A stretch of DNA of 62,134 nucleotides, taken from assembly GCA_964487295.1 (NCBI GenBank), contig CAZAQL010000002.1, forward strand, positions 1 to 62,134. Reading direction: 5' to 3'. Below are positions 4,061-62,134 of the stretch, piece after piece. The DNA comes from an uncultured bacterium (GTDB lineage: Bacteria; Joyebacterota; Joyebacteria; Joyebacterales; Joyebacteraceae). Made by a program: the position numbers and the translations under genes. Each line of letters starts with the position of its first letter. Within the stretch, counting starts at the first letter, position 1. A model generated the notes under the pieces. That model saw only the letters and a list, made by a program, of their open reading frames with translations. It searched no databases and was not told where the DNA came from.

Positions 4061-5386
4061 CTACCAGGCGATGCCGATGTATCGCCCTTTCGCTTTCGAC
4101 GGATCGTCCGTGATCCGCACGAGGTCGACCATGACCTGGTCCGCGCGCATGCGCTCCGGGACACTCTTGAACTCCTCGGCGCCGTTCGCGACGACGATGA
4201 CCTCGGACCGCTCGAGCAGTTCCTCCACACTCGCCGCGCGGATCTTCTCCGCATACGGCAGCTCGTGCTCGAGGAAACCCAGATTCGAGCCGAAGAGGTC
4301 GTTCCAGTTGATGTTCTCGTCGTAGATGCAGAGCTCGTAGCCCTTGCCGATGAGCGTCGAGACGACCTGGACGATCGGACTCTCTCTCAGATCGTCCGTC
4401 TCCGCCTTGAAGCTCATGCCGAGAACGCCGATCTTCTTCATGCCCGTCGCGCGGATGTGCTGGACGGCGCGTTCGATGTGCGCCGTGTTCGACGGGGTCG
4501 CCGCCGACAGCACGGGACACGCGAGATCGAGACGCTGGCTCATCCTCACGATGGCTCTGAGGTCCTTCGGCAGGCATGATCCGCCGAAGGCGAAGCCGGG
4601 CTTGAGGTAGTACGGTGAGAGGTTGAGCTGCGTGTCGAGGCAGAAGATCTCCATGACCTTGTGGCTGTCCGGCACGCCCATGCCCTTGGCGATGATCCCG
4701 ATCTCGTTGGCGAAGCAAACCTTGATCGCGTGGAAGCAGTTGTCGGCGTACTTCACCATCTCCGAGGTCTTGACGTTCGTGCGGACCAGAGGCGCATCGA
4801 TCGGCTCGTAGAGCGCCTCGAGCATGTCGCCCGCCTTCGACCCCTCCTCAAGCTCCCCGATGACGATCTTGGGCGGATGGTAGAAGTCCTGAACCGCTGA
4901 GGCTTCTCGCAGGAACTCGGGGTTGAACAGGACGCCGTAGGTCTCTCCCACCTTCCTGCCCGACGTCTCCTCGAGCACCGGGAGCAGTTCGTTCTCCACG
5001 GTGCCGGGAGGAATGGTGCTCCGGAAGACGACCGTGTGGAACTCGGACTTCCTCGCGAACACCTCGCCCATCTGCTGGCAGACCCGTTTCGTGTACTCAA
5101 GGTTCGGACTCCCGCCCTCCATCGACGGCGTGCCGACACAGACGAGCGACACGTCCGTGTTCAGGATGGCGTGCCCGTAGTCCTCGGTCACGGAGAGCCG
5201 CCCCTCGGCTACGCCCCTGGCAATGAGATCCGCGAGCCCGGGTTCGACGATCGGACTCGTGCCGTTCCGAAGGGGCTCGAGTTTCCTCGGATCAACATCG
5301 AGGCCGATGATCGTGTGTCCGAGATCACTGAAACAGGCTGCCGACACGCACCCGACGTATCCAAGACCCAGTACGCTGATTCTCAT
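4061..5386 (-). CDS. algD: GDP-mannose 6-dehydrogenase-like nucleotide-sugar dehydrogenase (AlgD type)
   Basis: True start is MRISVLGLGYVGCVSAACF (ATG 5386); the longer track ORF to 5620 is Arg/Ser-rich junk. NPEFLREASAVQDFYHPPKIVIGE, LNLSPYYLKPGFAFGGSCLPKDLRAI and the C-terminal ...GIAW resemble AlgD as I recall it more than Ugd/TuaD. Confidence 0.8.
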   Translation of the reverse strand: MRISVLGLGYVGCVSAACFSDLGHTIIGLDVDPRKLEPLRNGTSPIVEPGLADLIARGVAEGRLSVTEDYGHAILNTDVSLVCVGTPSMEGGSPNLEYTKRVCQQMGEVFARKSEFHTVVFRSTIPPGTVENELLPVLEETSGRKVGETYGVLFNPEFLREASAVQDFYHPPKIVIGELEEGSKAGDMLEALYEPIDAPLVRTNVKTSEMVKYADNCFHAIKVCFANEIGIIAKGMGVPDSHKVMEIFCLDTQLNLSPYYLKPGFAFGGSCLPKDLRAIVRMSQRLDLACPVLSAATPSNTAHIERAVQHIRATGMKKIGVLGMSFKAETDDLRESPIVQVVSTLIGKGYELCIYDENINWNDLFGSNLGFLEHELPYAEKIRAASVEELLERSEVIVVANGAEEFKSVPERMRADQVMVDLVRITDDPSKAKGRYIGIAW

Positions 5387-47152: not shown

Positions 47153-47926
47153 CTACTTGATGATACCCCTCGAGGAACTCTCGATGAAGGAGATGAGCCG
47201 CGCGACCTCCTCGGTCTGCGGGACTTCCTCCCGAATGCGGACGAGGGCCTGAGTCGTATTGAGGTCCGAGAGGTAGAGCAGACGGTAGCTCAGCCGAAGC
47301 GCCGACAGCGCCTCCTCGCTGAACCCGCGCCGCATCAGGCCTATCGTGTTGACCTCGATCGGACGGGTCGGCACGCCGCCGATCTTGAAGTAGGGCGGGA
47401 CGTCCTTCGTCACGCGACACGCGCCTCCCACATAGCAGTGAGCGCCGATACGAACGAACTGCTGGACGGCCGTCATGCCGCCGATGAAGGCGTGGTCCGC
47501 GATGGAGACGTGACCCGCGATGTTGACCGCGTTGACGATGACGACGTGGTCTCCCACGACGCAGTCGTGGGCGATGTGCGCGTACGCGCAGATGAGGCCG
47601 TCACTCCCGACGAACGTCGTACCGCCCTCCCCCGTGCCACGGTTGATCGTCGCGAACTCCCTGATGGTCGTCCTGTCGCCGATCTTCAGAAAGGTCTGCT
47701 CGCCCTCGTACTTCAGATCCTGCGGGTTCCCTCCGACCGCCGCGCCGTGGCAGATCTCGCACGACTCACCGATCTCCGTGTCGCGGTCGATCAGCGCCAT
47801 CGTTCGGACGACCGTGCCGCCGCCGATCGTGACGTTCGGCCCGATGACGGCAAACGGCTCGACGATGACATCATCGGCGAGCTTCGCGCTCTCGTGCACT
47901 ACGGCTCTCGTGTCTATCCGGGTCAT
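47153..47926 (-). CDS. lpxA: Acyl-ACP--UDP-N-acetylglucosamine O-acyltransferase
   Basis: Hexapeptide repeats throughout and a C-terminal helical domain GLMRRGFSEEALSALRLSYRLLY. Confidence 0.9.
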   Translation of the reverse strand: MTRIDTRAVVHESAKLADDVIVEPFAVIGPNVTIGGGTVVRTMALIDRDTEIGESCEICHGAAVGGNPQDLKYEGEQTFLKIGDRTTIREFATINRGTGEGGTTFVGSDGLICAYAHIAHDCVVGDHVVIVNAVNIAGHVSIADHAFIGGMTAVQQFVRIGAHCYVGGACRVTKDVPPYFKIGGVPTRPIEVNTIGLMRRGFSEEALSALRLSYRLLYLSDLNTTQALVRIREEVPQTEEVARLISFIESSSRGIIK

Positions 47927-47937
47927 CTGTCCTCCGG

Positions 47938-49245
47938 CTACCGATCCACGACCTGTGACCAGAACTCACCCTCCGCGGCGACCGCCCCCTTGACGTACGC
48001 GGTCCCGCGCATCTTGCACGTGCCGCCCCGGAGCCGAAGCAGCTCGAGCTCGAATCGGACGGTGTCGCCCGGGAAGACGGGCTTTCTGAACTTCGCATTC
48101 TCGATCGCCCCGAAGTATGCGAGCTTCTCCTCCGCCGGATCGAAGCGCGAGAGGAGGAGGAAGCCGCCGACCTGCGCCATCGCCTCCACGAGCACGACCG
48201 CGGGCACGATCGGATGTCCCGGGAAATGCCCGACGAAGAACCACTCGTTCATGGAGAAGTTCTTCACCCCCACCACGCGGTGGTCATCGAGTTCGAGGAT
48301 CCTGTCGACGAAGAGGAACGGGTAGCGGTGCGGCAGCACCTTCTCGATGTCTCGGATGTCCCAGCTCGTCGTCTCCCTGTAGCGGATCTTGCCCCGCTTG
48401 ATCCCGTCGACCAGGGCCCGAACGAACCGGACGTTCGACGCATGCCCCGATTTCGACGAGTAGATGTGACCCTTGATCGGCATCCCCAGAAGCGCGAGAT
48501 CGCCCATGAGATCGAGGATCTTGTGGCGGACGAACTCGTCGGGGAATCTGAGATCGCCCCGGTTGAGGATGCCGTCGTCGTCCACGACGACGGAGTTCTC
48601 GAGGCTGCCGCCCTTGATGAGCCCCATCTTCTTGAGTCCGTCGATATCGCGCTTGAGCGCGTACGTCCTGGCCGGCGCGATCTCGCGCCGGAAGGTCTCC
48701 TCGGTGATCTTGAAGCTCGCGAACTGGGTGCCGATAGTCGGGTTGTCGTAGTCGATCGTGAAGCTGACCCGGAACGAGTCATCCGGAGAGGCCGCCAGGT
48801 AGACGTCGGAATCCTGCACGGCGACCGGTTCGAGGATCTCCAGATACTGGAGCGGCTCATCCTGGTCCTCGATGCCGGCCTCGGTGAGAATGTCGACGAA
48901 CGGCTTGCAGCTGCCGTCCGTCGGCTCCGCCGGCTCATCGCGGTCGAGCTCGACGAAGACGTTGTCGACACCCACGCCGGAGAGCGCGGCGAGAACGTGC
49001 TCGACGGTGGAGATGTTGACGCCTCGCTTCGAGAGCATGGTCCGGCGCGTCGCGTCGTCCGACGTCACGGCGTTCCGGATCGACGCCTCCAGGGATGGCG
49101 TTCCCGGCAGGTCGACGCGCACGAAGACAACGCCCGTGTTCGCGGGCGCGGGCTTGAACGTGACCGTTGTCTCCTGCCCGGTGTGGATGCCGATACCCTT
49201 GTAGGAGCAGGGCCCGCGGAGCGTGCGCTGCTGGCTTCTCGCCAT
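47938..49245 (-). CDS. lpxC/fabZ: Bifunctional UDP-3-O-acyl-GlcNAc deacetylase / 3-hydroxyacyl-ACP dehydratase
   Basis: LpxC motifs: QRTLRGPCSYKGIGIHTG, TVEHVLAAL, SKSGHASNVRFV. FabZ motifs: LPHRYPFLFVDRILE, FFVGHFPGHPIVPAVVLVEAMAQ. Confidence 0.92.
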   Translation of the reverse strand: MARSQQRTLRGPCSYKGIGIHTGQETTVTFKPAPANTGVVFVRVDLPGTPSLEASIRNAVTSDDATRRTMLSKRGVNISTVEHVLAALSGVGVDNVFVELDRDEPAEPTDGSCKPFVDILTEAGIEDQDEPLQYLEILEPVAVQDSDVYLAASPDDSFRVSFTIDYDNPTIGTQFASFKITEETFRREIAPARTYALKRDIDGLKKMGLIKGGSLENSVVVDDDGILNRGDLRFPDEFVRHKILDLMGDLALLGMPIKGHIYSSKSGHASNVRFVRALVDGIKRGKIRYRETTSWDIRDIEKVLPHRYPFLFVDRILELDDHRVVGVKNFSMNEWFFVGHFPGHPIVPAVVLVEAMAQVGGFLLLSRFDPAEEKLAYFGAIENAKFRKPVFPGDTVRFELELLRLRGGTCKMRGTAYVKGAVAAEGEFWSQVVDR

Positions 49246-50297
49246 CAGTCCTCCTTCTCGAGATCATCCACTCGGCGCTCGAGCTCCTTGAGACGCCTGA
49301 ACAGCGCGGGCAGGTTCTGGATGCCGGCGTAGAACCGCTTCGAAAGAGAGTGCTTCCTGGCCGGATACCCGGAGACCTGTTCGCCGGCCTCCACGTCGCG
49401 CATCACGCCGGCCTGCGCCGCGACGATGGCGCCGTCGGCGATCCGGAGGTGACCCGCGATACCTGCCTGGCCCGCGAGGACGACGCCGTCCCCGACGCGG
49501 GTGCTTCCCGATATGCCGACCTGAGCGACGACGATCGAACGCTCGCCGATCTCCACGTTGTGCGCGATCTGAACCAGGTTGTCGATCTTGGTGCCTCGTC
49601 CGATGCGCGTCGCGCCGATGGTGGCCCGATCGATGCAGGCGTTCGCGCCGATCTCCACGTCGTCCTCGATGATCACCGTTCCGACCTGGGGCACCTTCCG
49701 ATGGCACGTGCCGTCCCACGCGAAGCCGAATCCGTCGCTGCCGATCACCGCCCCCGAATGGACGAACACGCGGTCACCGATCCTGACCCCGTGTTTGACG
49801 GTCGCACTCGGGAAGATGACGCAGTCCTCGCCGATGGTGCATCGCGAGCCGACGTAGGCTCCACCATGGACGACGCTTCTCGCCCCCACGGTCGCACCTT
49901 CGCTGATGACCGCGCAGGGTCCCACGGAGACGCCCTCCCCGAGCGACGCCGTACTCGCGATACGGGCGCTTGCATCGACTCCGGGCTCGATCGCCTCGAC
50001 CTCCACCTCGAACAGAGAGAGTGCCGAGGCGAACGCGACGTACGCGTCGTCCGCGACGAGCAGCGCTCTGCCGGCCGCAAGCGGCGAGGACTCGTACTGC
50101 GATGGGACGATGACCGCGGAGGCGCGTGTTGAGCTCAGGTGCCGCTCGTAGCGGGGGTTGGCGAGGAACGACAGATCGCCCGGGCCGGCCTCGGTCAGTG
50201 ACGCGACACCCCTGAGCAAGACCGTTCCATCACCGATGAGCTTCGCGCCGACAGCGCTCGCTATCTCAGACGCCGTGCGCGAGGACGTTCGCCCCAT
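49245..50297 (-). CDS. lpxD: UDP-3-O-(3-hydroxyacyl)glucosamine N-acyltransferase
   Basis: N-terminal domain followed by a long hexapeptide-repeat region and a C-terminal coiled tail. TGATG stop/start junction with lpxC/fabZ at 49245. Confidence 0.9.
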
Positions 50298-50330
50298 GCG
50301 CGTTCCTCCAGCCTCAGATGCGCCCGGGGG

Positions 50331-50891
50331 CTACTCCGTGGTCGTGTCGTTCAGCTTCTCGAGCACCTGCTCGGTCAGGTCCGACCCCGGTGCGGCATAG
50401 ACGACCGTGCCTCCCGCCGCGTCGAAGATCATGTCGTACTCGCCGGCCTCGCCGATCTCCGTGAGGATGGCGTTGATCCGCTCGAACACGGGCTGCCAGA
50501 GTTCGGCCTCCCGTCGCGCGGCCAGACCTCCGGTACCCCAGACGTCGTTCAGGAAGGACTCATACTCGAGCTGCTTCTGCTGGACGGCCTGCTCCTTCTC
50601 TCGGACGGCCTCCGGGGAGAGCATCAGGCGCTGGCTGTCCAGCTCGCCGAGCATGCTCTGGATCTCCGCCTCGAGGTCCTGAGCCTGCGAACGCCAGTCA
50701 TTGAGGCTCGCCTGCAGCTGGTTGTTGATCTCCCGCGCTCCGCTGTACTCGACCCGGATGCGCTCGGAGTGAATGAACCCTATCTCGGCAGCCTGGCACG
50801 CCATCGCGACGAGCAGGAACGATGCGACGGCGATGACGCGCAGTACGGTCAGACGTGTACTCACTGCAACCTCCCGGGGCGCAGGCCCCAC
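50331..50891 (-). CDS. skp: OmpH/Skp periplasmic chaperone
   Basis: Signal peptide LRVIAVASFLLVAMACQAAE followed by a Gln/Glu-rich coiled coil. Canonical position between bamA and lpxD. Exact start uncertain. Confidence 0.75.
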   Translation of the reverse strand: MGPAPREVAVSTRLTVLRVIAVASFLLVAMACQAAEIGFIHSERIRVEYSGAREINNQLQASLNDWRSQAQDLEAEIQSMLGELDSQRLMLSPEAVREKEQAVQQKQLEYESFLNDVWGTGGLAARREAELWQPVFERINAILTEIGEAGEYDMIFDAAGGTVVYAAPGSDLTEQVLEKLNDTTTE

Positions 50892-50900
50892 TTCGATCGT

Positions 50901-53339
50901 CTAGTATTCCATGCCGAAGCGGTAGTGGACGCGCCACTCCCCTCCGAGTTCTTCATCGAATCCGTAACCAAGGTCGATCCCCATGTTGCCGAGCATGGGC
51001 ACCTCGACGCGCACGCCCACGCCCGCCCCCCAGTAGAGATCGGTCGGGTGGGTGTCCGCCGCGCTCTCCCAGGTGTTTCCCGCGTCGACGAACCCGAGCA
51101 CGTGGACCGGGATCGTGTCCGGCCCCTCGATGATCGGGAACTTGAGCTCGGCCGAGCCGATCAACACGGTCCGCCCGCCGTAGAGCTCGCTCTCCCCGGG
51201 CAGGATCTCACGGTCCTGGTAGCCGCGCAGCCCGTAGGGCCCGACGCCGCCCAGCTCGAAACGGGTGTCCGTCGGAACCGTGTTCGGATCGCCGTATCCG
51301 GTCACGAGACCTCCGCGTCCCCGGACCATGAAGGTCAGCCCGAGCGGAAGCGGCAGGAACTTGCGAACCTCGAGGATATAGCGCTGGTACTCGACATCGC
51401 CACGGAACGCGCCGCCGAAGAGGTCCGCGGTCGCCCTCGTGTAACTGCCGAGTCGCGGGTGGAATCTCCGGTCGGTCGTGCGCCTGACGAGCGTAACCGT
51501 CAGACCGCTCCGCCATTCCCACTCGTCGTCGGTCCTATCGTACGTGACGGTGTCGTAATCTACATCCCCCGTCGCCGTGTCCTCGATCGCCGTCGTCAAC
51601 TCCCCGTACTCGTGGAGCTTGACCTGCTCGAGCGTGTACTGATTGTAGAGCATCGTGTAGCGCGAGCCGAACAGCGGCCAGCCGACGCGGATGTCGCCGC
51701 CGCGCCTCTCCCGATTGACGATGAAGTGTCGTGTCTGTCCCTCGTCCTCAGACCATATGTCGGAATCGGACGAGTCGGGGAAGACCTCCTGGTAGAAGTC
51801 GTCACCGAGAAGCGTGTAGGTCCGCTTGTCGTCGCGGTCGTAGAGGTCGAACCCGACCGAGAGCCTGCGGTCCATGAACCACGGCTCCGTGAACCCCAGG
51901 ATGAGCTCGGTGTTCCGCTTGCCGAACTCCCACTTGAGGTTCAGATACTGCCCGTTTCCGAAGAGGTTGGCCTCCGCCAGCTCGAGGAAACCGGTGATGC
52001 CCCTCTCGCTCGTGTGCGAGACCCCGACCCCGGCGCGTCCGGTCTGCCGTTCCCGCACGGTGAAGACGAGATCGACGTCGTCCGGGCTCTCGCTGTCGGC
52101 GAACTGCACCATCGGGCCGTCGAAGAAACCGAGATTCGCGACCTTGCGCTGGCTCGAGATGACCTCGGAGGTCTGGTAGAGGTCACCGGGGTGGATGGAG
52201 AGCTCTCGACGGATGACCTTCTCCTTGGTGCGCGTGTTGCCGACGATGTGTATCCGACCGACGCGCGCCGGCTCGCTCTCGTCGACGTTGAAGACCAGCG
52301 CCAGCTCCCGCCCGGAGGAGACGATCTCCTGCTTGACGATCCGGGCATGGATGTAGCCACGCTCCCAGTACCAGGAGTAGGCATCGTCGATGGTCTCGTC
52401 GGCGAGTCCGGGCTCGTACGTATCACCCGGCTCGACCGCGGTCACCTCGGTCAACGCATCCGCGGCGAAGTCCGACACGCCGACCCACTGTACGTCGGTC
52501 ACCGTGTAGAGCTCGCCGAGGTCCAGCTGGACGGTGATGGTGACCCGCTCCCCCTCGTCCTCATAGACGGTCTCGTAGCCTGGAGAGCTCGCATCGATGT
52601 AGCCCCTCGAGCGGACGTGCTCGAGAACCAGCTCGACGTCCGAGGCCAGAACCTCGCGGTCGAAGAAGGCGCTCGTGCGCCACCAGCGATCCTCCTCCGT
52701 CTCCATCAACGCCTTGAGTTCGTCCTCGTCGAAGGGACCGGCGCCCTCGAAGCCGATCCTCCGGACGAGCACGCGGGTTCCCTCCTCGATATCGAAGATG
52801 ACCCGAACGTTGTTGCCGGAGCGGTCCTCGACGCGCGTTTCGACGACAGCGCCCGGAAATCCCTTGCTCTCGTAGAGAGCAAGGACGGCCACCTTCGAAT
52901 CCTCCAGCCGCCCCTCGTCGAAGGGTACGCCGCGCTCGATACTGAGCCGCTCCTCGATATCATCATCGCTCAGCTCGTCGTTGCCGCGGATGTCCACCGA
53001 CGAGACGCGTGGACGCTCCTCAACGACGACGATCAGACGAAGGTCGCCATCCGGCGTCTGCTCACCGAACACCTGGATGTCGGAGAAGTAGCCCAGATCG
53101 TGTAGACGACGAATGCCCTTGCGGATGCCCTCGGTCGTCGGGGCATCCCCCAGCCGCAGACCGAAACCCAGAAGGACTCTGTCGCGGCTCACCAGCTCAT
53201 TGCCCTCGACGACGATCTCGGCGATCCGAGGTCCGTCGAAGGTCTCGACGGCCGCCGACGGCGCTTGCGCGTGCGCCACCGCCCCCCACAACAGGAGGGC
53301 GGAGAACACGGCCGAGCACACCAGACTGCGAATTCGCAC
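50901..53339 (-). CDS. bamA: Outer membrane protein assembly factor BamA
   Basis: GTG 53339, 6 nt after GGAGGT. Signal peptide VRIRSLVCSAVFSALLLWGAVAHAQA. POTRA repeats are followed by a C-terminal beta-barrel ending ...GGEWRVHYRFGMEY. Confidence 0.9.
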   Translation of the reverse strand: MRIRSLVCSAVFSALLLWGAVAHAQAPSAAVETFDGPRIAEIVVEGNELVSRDRVLLGFGLRLGDAPTTEGIRKGIRRLHDLGYFSDIQVFGEQTPDGDLRLIVVVEERPRVSSVDIRGNDELSDDDIEERLSIERGVPFDEGRLEDSKVAVLALYESKGFPGAVVETRVEDRSGNNVRVIFDIEEGTRVLVRRIGFEGAGPFDEDELKALMETEEDRWWRTSAFFDREVLASDVELVLEHVRSRGYIDASSPGYETVYEDEGERVTITVQLDLGELYTVTDVQWVGVSDFAADALTEVTAVEPGDTYEPGLADETIDDAYSWYWERGYIHARIVKQEIVSSGRELALVFNVDESEPARVGRIHIVGNTRTKEKVIRRELSIHPGDLYQTSEVISSQRKVANLGFFDGPMVQFADSESPDDVDLVFTVRERQTGRAGVGVSHTSERGITGFLELAEANLFGNGQYLNLKWEFGKRNTELILGFTEPWFMDRRLSVGFDLYDRDDKRTYTLLGDDFYQEVFPDSSDSDIWSEDEGQTRHFIVNRERRGGDIRVGWPLFGSRYTMLYNQYTLEQVKLHEYGELTTAIEDTATGDVDYDTVTYDRTDDEWEWRSGLTVTLVRRTTDRRFHPRLGSYTRATADLFGGAFRGDVEYQRYILEVRKFLPLPLGLTFMVRGRGGLVTGYGDPNTVPTDTRFELGGVGPYGLRGYQDREILPGESELYGGRTVLIGSAELKFPIIEGPDTIPVHVLGFVDAGNTWESAADTHPTDLYWGAGVGVRVEVPMLGNMGIDLGYGFDEELGGEWRVHYRFGMEY

Positions 53340-53469
53340 TGCTGCACCTCCGTGGGGTATACCGACCCGGCATCGTAGCATACGGCCTGGGGGATGTAAA
53401 CGAAAACTTGGACCCCCAAACCCTTTGAGAGCCAAGCAGTTATGGCTGTTCTGCGATGCCGTCTCGGGG

Positions 53470-55989
53470 TCAGAACCGGAATCGGTTCTCTATGGATATG
53501 CCCCGGTCCCACCCCTCCAGGACGGGGTCGTAGACGGCCTTCAGGGAGAGAGACGTATTGCGGGAGACCTCGTATTCAATGCCGAACTCGTGACGCGTCA
53601 CGAGGCTCTGCTCACCGACGGAGATCTCGTATGCCTGGGCGATCCCCTCGTAGGAGAGCATCCAGTCATGGGCGATGTACTTCCCCAGTGTAAGCCGGGT
53701 GTCCGCGAGGAACGGCTGGTACTGGCCCGAACCCTCCTGAGCCTGCCACAGGTCGAGCTGGTAGAGGAAGTACTCCACGAAGTCGACGTTGATGCGCACC
53801 AGGTCGAGATGGAGGGTCCGCTTGATGCGGCCCTCGACCGGTGAGATGAGCGGACGCACGACGGCGACACCGACCTGAGAGGCGACGACCTCCAGGGCGC
53901 GGCGTCTCTCCAGTGTTGCCAGATCAGCGCCGTCGACCTCCTCGCGATCCGCCCCGTAGGTCAGGCGGGCCAGGGCGTCCTCGGCGGTCGCGTCATCGGG
54001 CGAGTCCGAGCGGAGCACGACGGTCGATTCGTCCCAGGGGGTGCCGGCGCCAGCCAGCGCCGCTCCGGCCTCCTCCTCGGCCACGACCGACAGTGTGATC
54101 TCGGTGCCGTCGTCGACGCGCGTCGTGCCCTCGATGTAGAAGCGGGGCGGTTCGCAGAATGACGGGAAATCGATGAAGGCGATCCTCACGTCGAAGTCGG
54201 CGTTGAGATACGTGACGGTCCCGCGCGACGAACTGGCCCGGCCCGCCACGCAGAACGTGTGGTCGGCGGGGACGCCGACGAAGTCAAGACTCGAATCTCT
54301 GTCGAGCTTCAGATTCGCGTCCGGCCGACGGTACCAGAGGTTGCGTCCGGCCTGGATCGTGATCGACCAGTCGGCCCGCGAGAGGAAGTCCCCGCTGAGC
54401 CCTCCCCCCGACGACAGGAAGGGGTAGGTGAATGACGTGTCCGCGAACCGAAGGGTACCCCAGAGCACGGGATGCTCGGATGGGCCGGCCACGAGAAGGG
54501 CCCCGACGTCACCCCGGCGGATGACGGTGGCCCGACCGGTCTCCCCCTCCTCCATCAGCCCGGGAACACGGACGGGAACGCCCTGCTCCCCGGTCGTCAC
54601 GGCGAGCACGCCCAGATCCACACCCCGTACGACGAGCGGCTCCAGCAGTCGTCCCTCTACCAGCGCGCTCCGGCGGGACTCGATCGAGAGTTCCTCTCCG
54701 TCAGCGAGCGCGGTGAGCCTGCCCCGCGTAAGCTCCCCGTCGACGAGCGAGGCCTCGAGCGACAGCGACTCGAGTTCCTCGAGAACGCCGGGGATGCGAA
54801 GGGTCCCGTTGCGCACGTCCGCCTCGCCACGAACGAGCACGTACGACTCCCGGTCGCCGACGAGGTGGAACGTCATGCGCCCGTCGCTGCTCGCGTCCTC
54901 GAACCCATCGACCAGCGAGCCGACGAGCGCGAGAGGATCCTCATCCACCTCCACGGTGAGCTGCCCCTCGGCGGATCCCCCCGGCCTCGTCAGGGCCGCC
55001 AGCGGGGTGCGACCGGACGCCGTGACTCGATAGGAGCCGGCGCGGTCGAGCGACAGGCGGTCGAGCGACAGGTCGCCGGTCGCCCCGGTCACGCGCGCCG
55101 CGAACCGGTCGAACGGGATCCCCAGGAACACGCCCCTCTCGCCGTCGATCCGGCAGTCGAGGTTCGGGTTCTCGATCGTCCCGCCGATGCCCGCCACGAG
55201 TCCGAACTCCGTCCGGCCGTCTCCGCCCAGGAGCGGTCCGGGCACCGCCTCACCCCGGATCGTCAGCGCAAGCTCGCCCGCAAGATCGGCGCTGCCACTC
55301 GCCGTGAGGAAGCGTCTGTCAAGATACTCGGCCTCGGCTTCATCAACGCTCACGACCCCGCCGGCCAGCGAGACGACGGCGACCGCATCCAGGCCCCGGA
55401 CGTCGCCGACCCCGGCGCCCGCGAGCTGCAGCTGCGCGCTCCCGGCGAGATCGCCGACCGGCCCGCTCACCGATCCCGACGCGAATGCCAGGCCGTCGAG
55501 CGACGGCGGCGCCTCGCGACCGAGCGCCAGGCGATACGCATCACCGATCGGCGCCTCCGAGAGCACCGCGCTGGCGCGGAGCGTGGGAGCCTCACCCAGG
55601 GTCAGGACGCCAGCAAGCTCCGCGTATCCCCCCGCCTCCAACCTGCTCAGGACAAGCTCTCTCGATGTGATGGCGAGATCCGCCGAGAAAGGCATCTCGA
55701 CCCCGCGCGCGACGGCGTCGACCGAGTCCAGTCGCAATCGGAGTTCGCTGCCCGCGGGCTCAGGGCGGACGCGTCCCGTGACCTGAACCGTCGCGGTCGC
55801 GTCGAGCCCCCTCAGTCCGACGATGCCGTCGATGTCTACCTCCGGAAGCGTCCCGGAGACGTGGATCGGCCCGTCCATCCGAAACGGAACGAACCGTCCG
55901 GCTGGTCCGGCGATGAGCGAGTCCGCGGGAAGGTCCGAGAGAACGATGCAGCTCCGGACCGTCCATTCCGATCTCGCCCGAGATCTCAT
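53470..55989 (-). CDS. tamB: TamB/AsmA-like translocation and assembly module protein, C-terminal segment (DUF490-type end)
   Basis: Track ORF 53470..56076. The sequence is meaningful only from about WTVRSCIVLSDLPADSLIAGPAG onward. C-terminal ...FGIEYEVSRNTSLSLKAVYDP...ISIENRFRF is TamB-like. ATG 55989 is the only plausible internal restart. Confidence 0.7.
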   Translation of the reverse strand: MRSRARSEWTVRSCIVLSDLPADSLIAGPAGRFVPFRMDGPIHVSGTLPEVDIDGIVGLRGLDATATVQVTGRVRPEPAGSELRLRLDSVDAVARGVEMPFSADLAITSRELVLSRLEAGGYAELAGVLTLGEAPTLRASAVLSEAPIGDAYRLALGREAPPSLDGLAFASGSVSGPVGDLAGSAQLQLAGAGVGDVRGLDAVAVVSLAGGVVSVDEAEAEYLDRRFLTASGSADLAGELALTIRGEAVPGPLLGGDGRTEFGLVAGIGGTIENPNLDCRIDGERGVFLGIPFDRFAARVTGATGDLSLDRLSLDRAGSYRVTASGRTPLAALTRPGGSAEGQLTVEVDEDPLALVGSLVDGFEDASSDGRMTFHLVGDRESYVLVRGEADVRNGTLRIPGVLEELESLSLEASLVDGELTRGRLTALADGEELSIESRRSALVEGRLLEPLVVRGVDLGVLAVTTGEQGVPVRVPGLMEEGETGRATVIRRGDVGALLVAGPSEHPVLWGTLRFADTSFTYPFLSSGGGLSGDFLSRADWSITIQAGRNLWYRRPDANLKLDRDSSLDFVGVPADHTFCVAGRASSSRGTVTYLNADFDVRIAFIDFPSFCEPPRFYIEGTTRVDDGTEITLSVVAEEEAGAALAGAGTPWDESTVVLRSDSPDDATAEDALARLTYGADREEVDGADLATLERRRALEVVASQVGVAVVRPLISPVEGRIKRTLHLDLVRINVDFVEYFLYQLDLWQAQEGSGQYQPFLADTRLTLGKYIAHDWMLSYEGIAQAYEISVGEQSLVTRHEFGIEYEVSRNTSLSLKAVYDPVLEGWDRGISIENRFRF

Positions 55990-57499
55990 ATCCCATGCCG
56001 CGGGAGTTAAGCGACACGTAGGCGCGTCCGTCCTCGACAAGGACTCCTCCGGCGCCGTCGCCCAGCGCGAGTTCACCGTAGCGCACGTCGCTGAAGTTCA
56101 ACAGGAGCTCGCCGGAGTACGAATCGCCGTACCCCTCGAGCACGATGTCCGAGAGGGTCGCGTGCCCCGTCAGCGCGTCCGCCCATCCGAGCGCGGCCAG
56201 GCGGTCGAGCTCGATCGAGGTGATCGCGCCGCGCGCCTCGAGTTCCCGCGTGCCTGCCAGCGTGATCGTCCCGCTCGCTGTGAACTCGCCGCCGAGCACG
56301 TTCGCGTCCATCCGGTCGAACCGGACGACACCTCCACGGTACGCTCCCTCGGCCGTCATGCCTTCGAACTGCAACGGACTCAAGAGGAGTCGGTCCGAAC
56401 GGACGTGGAAGGTCACGATCGGTTCCCGGAACGTGCCGTCCAGCTGGACCCCGGCCACGAGCCCGCCGCCGAGCTCCGGGATCGTTCCTCCGATCAGATC
56501 CGCGAGCCGTGAGGCATCGAGCCCTGCGACCGTCAGGGCGATCCCGCTCATCGTCCCTTCGGAGAGGGAGATGCGGCCGCCGCGCGCGTCGATGCGCGCG
56601 CCCCTCCAGCGACCCGAGATGGCCGACGGCCTGACCGTCCGCCCGTCGTACGAGAAGCCGCCCCGGATGCCCGAGACCGTGTCGCTCCCGGCGACGGCCA
56701 CGTCCACGCCGTCCAGCTCGACGTCGAGGTCGAGCTCCGTTCCCGTCGAATCGCGCGTGAACGAGAAGTCGGCTGAGACGAAGCCGGCCAGCGGCCGCAC
56801 ACCTCCCCAAACCGGCGTCACGGCAGACGGCGAGAGGTCCGCGCGTTCGAGCGCGCCCGTGACGCTCAGGGTATCCCCCCGTACCGCGATCGTCGCTGTC
56901 AGATTGGTCGAATCACCGAGGACGGAGCCGTTCGCCCGCCCCGCCAACCGGTCCCGCGCGGTCCTCTCGAGGACCAGGTCGAGCCCCTCGATCTTTGTCC
57001 TCACGGAGTCCGCGCCCGCCAGGATGCTGACCCGCGCGCCGCTCACTCCCAGGTAGTCGGGCAGAACGGAGCCGAGCCTGTCGAGCGCAAGCGAAGCACG
57101 ACGGGACCTCTCCCGGCGGCTCGCCTCGTCCGCGGCGGACCGACCGGCGCCGACTTTGAGCGTCACGTGCGGCTCCGTCAGAATGACGGTGCTCAGGCTC
57201 TGCGCCGGATCGAACCCGCCCGCGATGAGCTGCCGGTAGCTGATCGATGCGCTGCCGCCGGGCACCCGGATGGAGCTCCCGTCGTCGAACGTGAGGAGAA
57301 CGTCCTGGAAGCGGACGGACGCGAGACCGAAGGAGAGCCCGCCGACCTCAATGTCGCCGTCGATGCGCGGAACGAGGCGAGCCATGAGAGCGCTTCGTAC
57401 GGAGGGGCGCGTCGTCGCGACGCGCAGGAACACGAGCGACGCCGGGACGACGCCGAGAACGACAACGGCGAGGATGAGGACCCACCTGCGGTGTCGCAT
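55760..57499 (-). CDS. tamB: TamB/AsmA-like protein, N-terminal segment (signal anchor plus repetitive beta-rich region)
   Basis: MRHRRWVLILAVVVLGVVPASLVFL anchor. Protein-like up to ...SRGMGYEISGEI (about 55975), then the frame degenerates into Arg-rich junk until the stop at 55760. Confidence 0.7.
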   Translation of the reverse strand: MRHRRWVLILAVVVLGVVPASLVFLRVATTRPSVRSALMARLVPRIDGDIEVGGLSFGLASVRFQDVLLTFDDGSSIRVPGGSASISYRQLIAGGFDPAQSLSTVILTEPHVTLKVGAGRSAADEASRRERSRRASLALDRLGSVLPDYLGVSGARVSILAGADSVRTKIEGLDLVLERTARDRLAGRANGSVLGDSTNLTATIAVRGDTLSVTGALERADLSPSAVTPVWGGVRPLAGFVSADFSFTRDSTGTELDLDVELDGVDVAVAGSDTVSGIRGGFSYDGRTVRPSAISGRWRGARIDARGGRISLSEGTMSGIALTVAGLDASRLADLIGGTIPELGGGLVAGVQLDGTFREPIVTFHVRSDRLLLSPLQFEGMTAEGAYRGGVVRFDRMDANVLGGEFTASGTITLAGTRELEARGAITSIELDRLAALGWADALTGHATLSDIVLEGYGDSYSGELLLNFSDVRYGELALGDGAGGVLVEDGRAYVSLNSRGMGYEISGEIGMDGPELHRSLGPSRGLAHRRTSRTVRSVSDGRADPRLRDASGGRHRRHRRTEGARRDRDGSGHGTRPP

Positions 57500-57612
57500 C
57501 GCTCCCTCTCTGCCTCAGCCGCTCGCCGGGACACGGAGATACGCCAAACCCGCCACGACCGCGGTCACCGATCGCACGGGTCTGGCGGCGGCTGCCGGCC
57601 GTCGCGCTCCCT

Positions 57613-57647
57613 GGAGTCGCGAAGCGACTCCCAAGCTGCTGCGGCGG

Positions 57648-57665
<18 letters not shown>
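57613..57665 (-). terminator. Two consecutive perfect GC-rich hairpins at and after the clpC stop (no U-tract)
   Basis: 14-bp stem gctgctgcggcggc/gccgccgcagcagc (57635-57648 / 57652-57665) with loop tag; the clpC stop codon occupies 57648-57650. 8-bp stem ggagtcgc/gcgactcc (57613-57620 / 57624-57631). Confidence 0.5.
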
Positions 57666-60113
<2,448 letters not shown>

Positions 60114-60156
60114 GGTATCCTCCGCATTCTCTCTCAGGAGGTTCGCCGGCGCACCC

Positions 60157-62133
60157 TCAGCGCGTCGACTTCTGCGTCCGGTCGTGTCCCGTGAGCTCCC
60201 GTCGAACGAGGTCCGCTCGCATACGGCACTGCTCCTCCCGATCCGGGCCCTCGCCGTGGAAGCACATCAGATGTCCCGGCTGTGTCAGGACCAGAAGACG
60301 GTTGAGCGTTCCGAGGTCCACACTCCCTACGATGCCGAGCGCCACGCCAAGTCTCAGCGAGGAGCAGAGCGACATGAACTCCTCGGTAGAGAGCATGCGG
60401 GCGCTGGTCAGGATACCATGGGCGCGCCAGACCTCATCCTCGAGCCTGAGCCCCGCCCTTGCCGCCAGATCCTCGCGCGCGGCAAGCTCGAGTTCGACGA
60501 TCCTGCTCCCTATCCGTTCGACGGTGTAGGCGATGTCCTCTTCAGACTGCCCGAGCGTTGTCTGGTTCGAGACCTGGAAGAAGCCGCCCAGAGCCGCGCT
60601 CCGCTCTCCGTAGAAACCCCGGACCGACAGGCCAAGCTTCGAGATGCCCCCGAGGACCTGCGCAACTTCACCCCGTCTGGCAAGACCCACGAGATGAAGG
60701 AGCACCGAGACACGGACCCCCGTCCCGACGTTCGTCGGACAGGCCGTCAGGTAGCCCCACTCTCTGGAGAAGGCGTACTGCAAATTCCGCTCCATTTCGG
60801 CGTCGACGCGGGACACGAGACGCCAGGCATCGAGCGGCATGAGCCCGCTGCGAATGCTCTGGAGGCGGAGATGATCCTCCTCGTTGATCATGGCGCCGAC
60901 GACCTCGCGTTCGCCGGCGAGCACCGCGCGCCCCTGGGGAATTCGCGCGAAGCCGGGGCTCGCCAGATGCCGCTCGACGAGGACCTTCCTCAGCGGGGCG
61001 CCCGCGTCCTCCATCCGAACGGACACTGCGTTCGCAAGGTAGTTGCTTCGTGCAGCCGCGGCGAGCAGTCTCTCGCGAACGCTCTCGAGCTCGTCCGGTC
61101 GGGCGCGCGAGGGGAACGCCCCGTCCGCGAGGTTGCGGGCGAGCCTGGCCCGCGTCGAGAGGACCACATCCGCGCGCGGTCCCGTCGCGTCCAGCCAGTC
61201 GCGGACAACGCCGTACAGCCGTTCAGCCTGCCGCGAGTTGGTCTGATAGAAGCTCTTGGGGTGGATCGCGAACTGCAGGTGGCCGCACCGCTCGGTGATG
61301 ACCTGGTCGCCCGCGGCCGGGTAGGCGGGATGGGGGCCAATGTCATCGTTCCTGCTGGTGTTGATGACGTACCATGCGGAGGTAATCCCGGGGACTCGCT
61401 GCATGAGCGCGCCCAGGAACCGGCCCGCGACGTCCGGCCGATCCTCGCCCAGCACCAGGATCACCATGACGCCGCCCAGCGTGCTGGTGCGCACGATGAT
61501 GCTTCGCAGCAGTCCCGTGTGGAGGGCGGGGTCGTGGAACGAGTAGTCGTTCTCCAGGGCGATGGCGCGCGCTTCCGTCCTGATGGCGTTCGAGGGATCC
61601 GCCTGCAGGTAGCAGTGCTCTATGTCCAGGACCCGGTCGAACCGCCCCTTCACGTGGAAACCCAACGCGCGTCGGTCGGTGATCTCGGCCCCCGAGTCAA
61701 CCTCGGCCTGCGTGATCCAGCGCACCGGCGCAAATGAGAATTCCAGCTTGTTGCGGTAGTAGGTATCCGACTCGCAGCCCAGGATGGGCAGCGGAGCCGG
61801 TTCGTGGATGCCGCCGATCCGCCGCAGCACGTCGGCCACGAACTGCTCCTTGTACCGGAGCTGGGCGGGGTAGGGCAGGTACTGCCAGGTGCATCCGCCG
61901 CAGTCGGTGAAGTGGGAGCAGAATGGTTCCTGCCGCTCCGGCGAGGTGGCATGCCAGCGGTCCACCCGGGCAAACGCGTGGTCGCGCCGCTTGCGGGTGA
62001 TGGTCACATCCACCACCTCTCCGGGGAGGACCCCATCCACGAAGACCACCCGGCCCTCCGGTCTGATGATGCCGTGTCCCTGGTACTCGATGGATTCCAC
62101 CGTCTGGTTCTGGTAACTGCGCTGTTTTGCCAC
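60157..62133 (-). CDS. mcsB: Single ORF joining an RlmD (RumA) N-terminal fragment (about 61168-62133) to protein arginine kinase McsB (60157-61167)
   Basis: RlmD part: TRAM domain (GRVVFVDGVLPGEVVDVTITRKRRDHAFARV), Fe-S cysteines FCSHFTDCGGCTWQ plus IEHCYL, up to FYQTNSRQAERLYGVVRDWLDATGPRAD. McsB part: VVLSTRARLARNL, INEEDHLRLQ, GYLTACPTNVGTGVRVSVLLHL, FQVSNQTTLGQSEEDI. There is no stop between them. GTG 61167 is a possible internal McsB start. The ORF starts 1 nt from the window end, so the 5' end may be incomplete. Confidence 0.8.
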   Translation of the reverse strand: MAKQRSYQNQTVESIEYQGHGIIRPEGRVVFVDGVLPGEVVDVTITRKRRDHAFARVDRWHATSPERQEPFCSHFTDCGGCTWQYLPYPAQLRYKEQFVADVLRRIGGIHEPAPLPILGCESDTYYRNKLEFSFAPVRWITQAEVDSGAEITDRRALGFHVKGRFDRVLDIEHCYLQADPSNAIRTEARAIALENDYSFHDPALHTGLLRSIIVRTSTLGGVMVILVLGEDRPDVAGRFLGALMQRVPGITSAWYVINTSRNDDIGPHPAYPAAGDQVITERCGHLQFAIHPKSFYQTNSRQAERLYGVVRDWLDATGPRADVVLSTRARLARNLADGAFPSRARPDELESVRERLLAAAARSNYLANAVSVRMEDAGAPLRKVLVERHLASPGFARIPQGRAVLAGEREVVGAMINEEDHLRLQSIRSGLMPLDAWRLVSRVDAEMERNLQYAFSREWGYLTACPTNVGTGVRVSVLLHLVGLARRGEVAQVLGGISKLGLSVRGFYGERSAALGGFFQVSNQTTLGQSEEDIAYTVERIGSRIVELELAAREDLAARAGLRLEDEVWRAHGILTSARMLSTEEFMSLCSSLRLGVALGIVGSVDLGTLNRLLVLTQPGHLMCFHGEGPDREEQCRMRADLVRRELTGHDRTQKSTR

Positions 62134-62134
62134 G

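What the first reader, a model, noticed from the sequence alone, without database searches (positions are those of the whole stretch)
60157..62133. RlmD N-terminal fragment (TRAM + 4Fe-4S + central domain) joined in frame to McsB exactly at the SAM-binding motif
Seen in sequence: one uninterrupted 658-codon ORF. Residues 1-322 match RumA/RlmD up to the segment FYQTNSRQAERLYGVVRDWLDATGPRAD. In RlmD this segment is followed directly by motif I (VLDLxCGxG). Here it is followed by VVLSTRARLARNL..., the conserved N-terminus of the arginine kinase McsB. The whole methyltransferase catalytic domain is therefore missing. The two families share a D-V-V-L microhomology at the junction near 61167. Established knowledge: mcsB normally follows mcsA (often ctsR-mcsA-mcsB-clpC), and McsA activates McsB. 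No mcsA-like UVR/zinc-finger ORF is present upstream here, while mcsB-clpC adjacency is kept. Inference: this could be a real fusion placing an RNA-binding, Fe-S module on an arginine kinase. It could also be a deletion scar, with McsB starting at GTG 61167 (no clear RBS). A third possibility is an assembly chimera at the microhomology.
Basis: partly seen in the sequence, partly recalled or inferred. Interest (0 to 1): 0.7.

Follow-up and report, generated by a model that had tools for sequence, protein, structure and literature searches.

The report
Chimeric contig end, not a fusion
The apparent RlmD–McsB fusion protein is almost certainly an assembly artefact: the last 957 bases of this contig come from a spirochaete's rlmD gene and were joined to an unrelated bacterium's mcsB gene at a 21-base stretch that both genes happen to share.

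Summary
The 658-codon ORF (60157..62133, minus strand) exists and does consist of an RlmD N-terminal two-thirds followed by an almost complete McsB. It is very unlikely to be a real gene.

- **Position.** The window is a whole 62,134-bp contig, and the RlmD piece is its terminal 957 nt.
- **Body.** It is colinear with Eisenbacteria-like genomes, where the order is lolD–mcsA–mcsB–clpC–tamB–bamA. Colinearity stops 13 codons into mcsB.
- **Tail.** From that point the sequence follows an rlmD (85% nt, 89% aa to its closest relative) whose relatives all lie in a conserved gene neighbourhood of Spirochaetales MAGs.
- **Crossover.** It is a 21-nt stretch (61177–61197, W-L-D-A-T-G-P). Relatives of both parent genes carry it with only 2–3 mismatches. 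This also explains why the join is in frame.
- **Codon usage.** It switches from spirochaete-like to body-like at the junction. The tail is the only outlier against all 36 body ORFs.
- **Selection.** The fragment's dN/dS of 0.095 fits a piece of an intact working gene.
- **Recurrence.** No protein or contig with both halves was found in four searches, one of them an exhaustive scan of 1.84 billion representative proteins.

A real, very recent inter-phylum recombination cannot be excluded without reads. It is much less parsimonious.

The parts
61198..62134 (-). Foreign tail: codons 1-312 of a Spirochaetales-type rlmD (TRAM domain, Fe-S cysteines, central domain, first helix of the catalytic domain), running to 1 nt before the contig end.
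   Evidence: It is 85% nt identical to L001 over 61177-62134 and 89% aa identical to the intact 462-aa P0001 over residues 1-321. L001 is syntenic with the Spirochaetales MAG loci. Codon-usage LLR is +0.041, in the spirochaetal range. dN/dS against L001 is 0.095.
61177..61197 (-). Crossover: the 21-nt stretch TGGCTGGACGCGACGGGACCG (W313-L-D-A-T-G-P319), present in near-identical form in relatives of both parent genes.
   Evidence: L001 rlmD differs at 2 of 21 positions and L163 mcsB at 3 of 21. The blastn alignments to the two parental lineages overlap exactly here: L051/L163 end at 61198 and L001 starts at 61177. The 21-mer is unique in the window.
60157..61176 (-). mcsB of the contig's real (Eisenbacteria-like) organism. 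Together with the crossover it corresponds to residues 14-355 of the native protein. The native start codon and first 13 codons are missing.
   Evidence: It is 77% aa identical and ungapped against L163 McsB residues 14-344 and 79.9% nt colinear with L163. NCBIfam NF002194 scores 343.7 bits over profile positions 4-341 of 345. Codon-usage LLR is -0.053, typical of the body.
61165..61167 (-). GTG (Val323), the only in-frame start-type codon near the junction. It is not a native start.
   Evidence: this is the only ATG/GTG/TTG between residues 286 and 345, and the upstream 20 nt (CGACGGGACCGCGCGCGGAT) hold no clear Shine-Dalgarno sequence. In relatives mcsB starts at an ATG that overlaps the end of mcsA.
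57648..60113 (-). clpC, the native downstream neighbour of mcsB. It was used to identify the body's lineage and to show that the window is a whole contig.
   Evidence: Pfam finds Clp_N, AAA, AAA_2 and ClpB_D2-small. Self hit P0121 sits on a contig of 62,134 bp. The nearest relatives are 93% and 90% identical, and the named relatives at 81-83% are 'Candidatus Eisenbacteria bacterium'.

Best explanation
The ORF is an artefact of a chimeric contig end. The contig is a 61.2-kb piece of an Eisenbacteria-like genome that truly ends inside the 5' end of mcsB. During assembly (or, less likely, by template switching during library preparation or amplification) it was extended into reads from a different organism in the same sample. 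That organism is a high-GC member of the Spirochaetales. The bridge was a roughly 21-nt sequence shared by that organism's rlmD and the Eisenbacteria-like mcsB. The shared sequence encodes the same peptide (WLDATGP) in the same frame in both genes, so the join is automatically in frame and reads as one 658-codon ORF.

Shown: the two-lineage origin, the position of the crossover, the codon-usage switch, the terminal position, and the absence of any second instance.

Inferred: that the join arose in silico or in vitro rather than in a cell.
For: 1. The window is a whole contig, and the RlmD piece is its last 957 nt (P0121 'longest_contig 62134').
2. The body is colinear with L051 and L163/L164/L165 from about 47.7 kb to 61198 and no further. 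Those relatives carry lolE-lolD-mcsA-mcsB(355 aa)-clpC-tamB-bamA, on 11 contigs from several samples.
3. The ClpC relatives that carry a name at 81-83% identity are Candidatus Eisenbacteria. None of the named relatives listed is spirochaetal.
4. The tail's relatives are all Spirochaetales/Spirochaetaceae MAGs. The closest relative's contig, L001, is syntenic with them across 9.8 kb, and rlmD there is intact and followed by a glycerate kinase gene.
5. The crossover is a 21-mer present in both parental lineages with 2 and 3 mismatches.
6. Codon-usage log-likelihood ratio per codon (spirochaete minus body): tail +0.0405; McsB part -0.053; 38 body chunks -0.047 +/- 0.016 (max +0.005); L001 chunks +0.038 +/- 0.006. 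All 36 body ORFs are negative. Models trained on independent sequence give tail +0.041 against body -0.008 +/- 0.012.
7. dN/dS of the fragment against the intact L001 rlmD is 0.095, as expected for a piece of a working gene.
8. No two-domain relative was found among the best 120 hits in a 5.8-billion-sequence word-indexed search, among the 80 kept loci from 185,579 species genomes, among the 80 kept loci from metagenome contigs, or among the best 150 of an exhaustive HMMER scan of 1.84 billion representatives, every one of which has a single matched stretch.
9. Chimeric contigs that arise from k-mers shared between genomes are a recognised failure mode of de Bruijn-graph metagenome assemblers (PMC7299287).
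Against: - No reads, coverage values or assembly graph are available, so the join itself was never tested directly.
- The exact parental sequences (100% identical contigs that continue differently past the junction) were not found in the collections. The length of the exact shared k-mer is therefore inferred from relatives that are 80-85% identical.
- Modern assemblers finish with k-mers longer than 21, so a 21-nt overlap alone would not normally make a join. Extra coincidental identity, low coverage, a read-level chimera or a gap-closing step has to be assumed.
- The reading frame is open and both halves are undamaged, which a real recent event would also give.
Confidence: 0.87

Rival explanations
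1. The junction is real but accidental. A fragment of spirochaetal DNA recombined very recently into the Eisenbacteria-like chromosome by illegitimate recombination at the WLDATGP microhomology. This replaced mcsA and the first 13 codons of mcsB and left an unselected in-frame scar.
For: - The ORF is open and both parts are intact.
- A microhomology of about 21 nt is also what microhomology-mediated recombination would use.
- Unameliorated codon usage and low dN/dS are compatible with a very recent transfer.
- The artefact reading was not tested with reads.
Against: - It needs an inter-phylum transfer that lands by chance at the very end of a contig.
- It would remove mcsA and disrupt the conserved lolD-mcsA-mcsB-clpC arrangement seen in every relative.
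- No second instance turned up in any collection.
- A unique, real junction gives the assembler no reason to stop 957 nt later.
Confidence: 0.09
2. The fusion is real and functional: a TRAM/Fe-S RNA-binding module placed on the arginine kinase McsB, replacing McsA as its regulatory partner.
For: - The join is in frame, the TRAM domain and four cysteines are intact, and McsB is nearly complete.
- McsB does accept N-terminal fusions in nature, but the partner seen is McsA (P0300-P0302, P0320).
Against: - The architecture does not recur among 1.84 billion representative proteins or in the other three searches.
- The breakpoint is not at a domain boundary. It keeps the first strand and helix of the RlmD catalytic domain (FYQTN...WLDATG) without the rest of that fold.
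- The two halves come from different phyla and have different codon usage.
Confidence: 0.02
3. A deletion scar within one genome: rlmD and mcsB lay on the same chromosome and the DNA between them was deleted.
For: Same-strand orientation and a microhomology at the join.
Against: - The tail's gene lineage and codon usage are spirochaetal, while the body's are Eisenbacteria-like.
- In the body's relatives the 9 kb upstream of mcsB hold polA, coaE, prfB, lysS, lolE, lolD and mcsA, with no rlmD.
- In the tail's relatives rlmD is flanked by an AP-endonuclease gene and a glycerate kinase gene, with no mcsB.
Confidence: 0.02

Closest known systems
Inter-genome chimeric contig (metagenome misassembly at a shared k-mer)
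   Same: The join sits at a short sequence shared by two unrelated genomes. Phylogenetic affiliation and codon usage switch exactly there. The foreign piece is short and terminal, and the junction does not recur in other data (general description in PMC7299287).
   Different: The read-level signature (clipped reads, discordant pairs, a step in depth) could not be examined. The shared stretch inferred from relatives is only about 21 nt, which is shorter than the final k of most assemblers.
RlmD/RumA, 23S rRNA (uracil1939-C5)-methyltransferase
   Same: Residues 1-312 are an ordinary N-terminal part of this family: TRAM domain, Fe-S cysteines and central domain. They are 89% identical to an intact 462-aa member.
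   Different: SAM-binding motif I (LLDLYCGIG in P0001) and the whole catalytic domain are missing. The TIGR00479 score of 158 is below the cut-off of 183.55.
McsB protein arginine kinase in an mcsA-mcsB-clpC operon
   Same: The catalytic domain and C-terminal part are complete, and clpC is directly downstream. It is 77% identical to the McsB of the closest relative.
   Different: The native start and first 13 codons are absent, and so is mcsA, although mcsA is present in the relatives whose upstream context was examined (L051, L163-L165).
Natural McsA-McsB fusion proteins
   Same: They show that McsB can carry an N-terminal extension, joined just upstream of the same W-[LM]-x-x-x-G-P-x-x-D-[IV]-V motif (P0300, P0320).
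   Different: The partner is McsA (zinc ribbon and UVR motif), not an RNA methyltransferase fragment, and several such fusions appear among the cluster representatives listed.

Membership tests
RlmD/RumA methyltransferase | N-terminal TRAM domain | tested here: met
   Pfam PF01938, residues 5-57, 31.8 bits against a cut-off of 21.
RlmD/RumA methyltransferase | Four cysteines for the 4Fe-4S cluster | tested here: met
   C72, C78, C81 (CSHFTDCGGC) and C174 (HCY) are present and conserved in P0001. Their assignment as cluster ligands rests on knowledge of E. coli RumA, not on a test made here.
RlmD/RumA methyltransferase | SAM-binding motif I and the C-terminal catalytic domain with the nucleophilic cysteine | tested here: not met
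   The profile match ends at position 293 of 432. P0001 residues 319-462 find nothing in the window by tblastn. The whole-protein score of 158 is below the cut-off of 183.55.
McsB protein arginine kinase | ATP:guanido phosphotransferase catalytic domain covered end to end by McsB profiles | tested here: met
   PF00217 scores 178.6 bits and NF002194 covers positions 2-341 of 345. The score of 343 is below the cut-off of 385, but the intact McsB of relative L163 is also below it at 372, so this is typical of the lineage.
McsB protein arginine kinase | Native N-terminus and start codon | tested here: not met
   Colinearity with L163 and L051 begins at codon 14 of their mcsB. The first 13 codons (MWTFESMVGQP[AS]S) are replaced.
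mcsA-mcsB-clpC operon | mcsA directly upstream of mcsB | tested here: not met
   tblastn with L051 McsA finds nothing better than E = 0.056 in the window. mcsA is present in L051, L163, L164 and L165.
Genuine multidomain fusion family | The same architecture recurs in other genomes or samples | tested here: not met
   No hit with both halves. Hits with more than 50% query coverage are alignment drift.
Chimeric contig (assembly artefact) | The two sides of the join belong to different organisms | tested here: met
   The body is Eisenbacteria-like by ClpC and by synteny. The tail belongs to a Spirochaetales clade by homology and by the synteny of its closest relative.
Chimeric contig (assembly artefact) | Compositional switch at the join | tested here: met
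   The codon-usage LLR changes sign at the junction. The tail lies 5.6 SD from the body mean and inside the spirochaetal range. GC content alone does not discriminate: 0.662 against 0.684.
Chimeric contig (assembly artefact) | The join lies at a sequence shared by both parents, near a contig end | tested here: met
   A 21-mer with 2 and 3 mismatches in relatives of the two parents, 957 nt from the contig end.
Chimeric contig (assembly artefact) | Read-level discordance (clipping, discordant pairs, a step in depth) at the join | not testable with these tools
   No reads or coverage data are available.

The most novel reading that the evidence does not exclude
The junction is real: an Eisenbacteria-like bacterium acquired the 5' two-thirds of a spirochaetal rlmD by inter-phylum transfer, fused in frame to mcsB in place of mcsA. 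This would give an arginine kinase with a TRAM/Fe-S RNA-binding module that could direct ClpC-dependent degradation to RNA-bound or ribosome-associated substrates.
Probability: 0.03. Interest if true: 0.6.

Novelty: not a real feature. Interest (0 to 1): 0.05.

Why it matters
As biology it does not matter. There is no evidence for a new RNA-binding arginine kinase, and an annotation of this ORF as a fusion protein would be wrong.

It matters for data hygiene.
- The last 957 nt of this contig should be trimmed or flagged before binning, taxonomic assignment or domain-architecture mining.
- The case shows how a hexa- or heptapeptide shared by chance between two high-GC genomes with similar codon bias can produce an in-frame 'domain fusion' that looks convincing from sequence alone.
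- The checks used here generalise to other candidate fusions at contig ends: where colinearity with each parental lineage ends, a codon-usage likelihood ratio, and an exhaustive search for the same architecture.

Tried and rejected
- **Looking up the fusion protein by exact sequence:** not on record. The likely reason is that the gene touches the contig edge, so this says nothing either way.
- **GC content as a discriminator:** rejected. The tail is 0.662, the body 0.684, L001 0.662 and L051 0.657.
- **Hits covering 53-67% of the query as possible fusions** (P0025, P0041, P0068, L015, L030, L062): rejected. One case, P0041, was examined and its alignment past residue 320 is gapped low-identity drift into the methyltransferase domain; the others were not examined separately.
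- **P0243 (92% identical to residues 1-178, 223 aa) as a possible closer parent or second chimera:** it is a frameshifted copy of P0001.
- **Long McsB proteins with N-terminal extensions as possible analogues:** they are McsA-McsB fusions.
- **Exact parental contigs:** I searched for 100% identical sequence continuing into mcsA or into the methyltransferase domain. None was found. The exhaustive search is the strong negative for the architecture.
- **Third word-indexed protein search (McsB half alone):** not run. The closest ClpC relative is only 93% identical, so a same-species McsB was not expected.

Full report
**1. The observation**

The ORF is real as sequence. It runs 60157..62133 on the minus strand, is 658 codons long and begins with GTG.

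Profile searches confirm the two-part make-up.
- Residues 16-318 match the RlmD equivalog TIGR00479 over profile positions 2-293 of 432. The TRAM domain covers residues 5-57.
- Residues 311-648 match the protein-arginine-kinase model NF002194 over positions 2-341 of 345. Pfam ATP-gua_Ptrans scores 178.6 bits.
- Cys72, 78, 81 and 174 are present.
- clpC follows at 57648..60113.
- Neither mcsA nor the missing methyltransferase domain is anywhere in the window.

First, the junction is about ten codons further upstream than stated. 'GPRAD-VVLS' is native McsB sequence: relatives read WLDATGPRSDVVLS (L163) and WLDASGPRSDVVLS (L051). The intact RlmD relative reads WLDATGSEALLDLYCGIG. The crossover is therefore W313-P319, window 61197..61177.

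Second, the ORF has no upstream boundary, because it begins 1 nt from the end of the sequence. The window's own ClpC (P0121) is recorded on a contig of exactly 62,134 bp, so the window is a complete contig. The other end of the window cuts through a glycosyltransferase-like gene, as a contig end would.

**2. Where each side comes from**

The body. blastn shows that the contig is colinear with L051 (JAPEKQ010000001.1) and with L163/L164/L165 from about 47.7 kb up to position 61198, at 72-80% nt identity, and not beyond. L163-L165 carry the closest ClpC (93% identity), which is on 11 contigs from several JGI and ENA samples. There the gene order is polA-coaE-prfB-lysS-lolE-lolD-mcsA(192 aa, UVR)-mcsB(355 aa)-clpC-tamB-like-bamA-ompH-lpxD-lpxC/fabZ-lpxA. 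L051 likewise has mcsA directly upstream of mcsB. The ClpC relatives that carry a name at 81-83% identity are 'Candidatus Eisenbacteria bacterium', and none of the named relatives listed is spirochaetal.

The tail. Positions 61177-62134 align at 85% nt identity to L001, an ENA metagenome contig. The protein is 89% identical over residues 1-321 to L001's intact 462-aa RlmD, P0001. In the species-representative genomes, the 23 closest relatives of this half (45-78% identity) are Spirochaetales/Spirochaetaceae MAGs; more distant ones (at most 48%) are Bacteroidales-type. L001 is syntenic with these MAGs over its whole 9.8 kb: ABC-F, SpoU methylase, AP endonuclease, rlmD, glycerate kinase, DUF1820. 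In that lineage rlmD is followed by a glycerate kinase gene, not by mcsB.

**3. The join**

The window follows L001 up to ...TGGCTGGACGCGACGGGACCG and follows L163/L051 from that same stretch onward. In this 21-mer, L001's rlmD differs at 2 positions and L163's mcsB at 3. Both genes encode W-L-D-A-T-G there in the same frame, so any join inside the stretch is in frame. The open reading frame is therefore not evidence of selection. The 21-mer is unique within the contig.

**4. Independent tests**

Codon usage. I trained synonymous-codon models on the 36 body ORFs (17,873 codons) and on L001's genes other than rlmD (2,368 codons). The log-likelihood ratios per codon (spirochaete minus body) were:

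| Sequence | LLR per codon |
|---|---|
| Tail (codons 1-312) | +0.0405 |
| McsB part | -0.053 |
| 38 body chunks of 312 codons | -0.047 ± 0.016 (max +0.005) |
| L001 chunks | +0.038 ± 0.006 |

. Every one of the 36 body ORFs is negative, and a sliding window over the fusion ORF changes sign at the junction. Models trained on sequence from neither source (L163 against the Spirochaetales loci L005-L008 without rlmD) give +0.041 for the tail against -0.008 ± 0.012 for body chunks. GC content does not discriminate.

Selection. dN/dS of the fragment against L001's rlmD is 0.095, with dS = 0.64. This is the signature of a piece of a working gene, not of a remnant that has been decaying.

**5. Recurrence**

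No protein or locus contains both halves in any of four searches:
- the best 120 of a word-indexed search of 5.8 billion sequences;
- the 80 best loci from 185,579 species genomes;
- the best 150 of an exhaustive HMMER scan of 1.84 billion cluster representatives, all of which have a single matched stretch.

A relative with both halves would have outscored every single-half hit. Hits with more than 50% query coverage are alignment drift. The only N-terminal partner of McsB seen in those lists is McsA.

**6. Interpretation**

The most economical explanation is a chimeric contig end. An Eisenbacteria-like contig that really ends inside the 5' end of mcsB was extended into a co-occurring spirochaete's rlmD through a shared k-mer. 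Shared k-mers between genomes are a recognised source of chimeric contigs in de Bruijn-graph metagenome assembly (PMC7299287). Template switching during amplification would give the same picture. I put this at 0.87.

The remaining probability goes mainly to a real but very recent and unselected inter-phylum recombination (0.09). That reading shares the phylogenetic and compositional signatures, but it needs several coincidences: terminal position, loss of mcsA, and no recurrence. A functional fusion (0.02) is further disfavoured because the breakpoint is not at a domain boundary. It keeps the first strand and helix of RlmD's catalytic domain without the rest. An intragenomic deletion (0.02) is contradicted by the two-lineage origin and by the gene neighbourhoods of both parental lineages.

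**7. What was not shown**

No reads, depth values or assembly graph were available, and the exact parental sequences were not found. The in-silico origin of the join is therefore an inference. The length of the exactly shared k-mer is inferred from relatives that are 80-85% identical. The report's next-steps section lists the read-mapping, graph and PCR tests that would settle it.

**8. Verdict**

This is not a real feature. It is of low biological interest, but the terminal 957 nt should be flagged or trimmed, and the ORF should not be annotated as a fusion protein.

Noticed in passing
window 53470-57499 (- strand), frame change near 55947-55952: The tamB-like gene is split into two overlapping ORFs (579 aa and 868 aa). 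In the close relative L163 it is one 1350-aa ORF. tblastn shows a -1 to -2 frame change at about 55950. This is either a real frameshift or pseudogene, or a consensus indel error. The second would be another sign of imperfect assembly of this contig.
   Followed up: partly
window 47669-61197; L163 6346-22466; loci L026-L082: A complete mcsA-mcsB-clpC module, without an adjacent ctsR, sits between a lolE/lolD-like ABC transporter and an outer-membrane biogenesis cluster (tamB-like, bamA, ompH, lpxD, lpxC/fabZ, lpxA) in Eisenbacteria-like genomes. McsB homologues at 39-47% identity are also found in MAGs labelled Gemmatimonadota, Latescibacterota, Planctomycetota, Omnitrophota and Elusimicrobia. 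The McsB literature retrieved describes the system as Gram-positive (PMC11046695 abstract).
   Followed up: partly
database proteins P0300, P0301, P0302, P0320 (not in the window): These are natural single-chain McsA-McsB fusions of 502-556 aa (zinc ribbon and/or UVR motif, then the kinase domain). They are joined just upstream of the conserved W-[LM]-x-x-x-G-P-x-x-D-[IV]-V-[IL]-S motif.
   Followed up: partly
window 61177-61197; L001 7516-7536; L163 8912-8932: The N-terminal McsB motif W-L-D-A-[TS]-G-P and the RlmD helix just before SAM motif I (V-V-R-[DE]-W-L-D-A-T-G) coincide by chance at peptide level. In these high-GC genomes they also nearly coincide at nucleotide level. This is a ready-made trap for in-frame chimeras between the two gene families.
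   Followed up: yes
L163 4653-4803 (not in the window): Two adjacent 76-nt copies at 97% identity (4653-4728 and 4728-4803) lie in the intergenic region between the prfB-like and lysS-like genes of the relative. They appeared as off-diagonal megablast hits. The size suggests tandem tRNA genes, but this was not checked.
   Followed up: no
database protein P0243 (not in the window): This 223-aa entry is identical to P0001 over about 176 residues and then goes out of frame. It is a frameshifted copy of the same spirochaetal rlmD in another assembly.
   Followed up: yes
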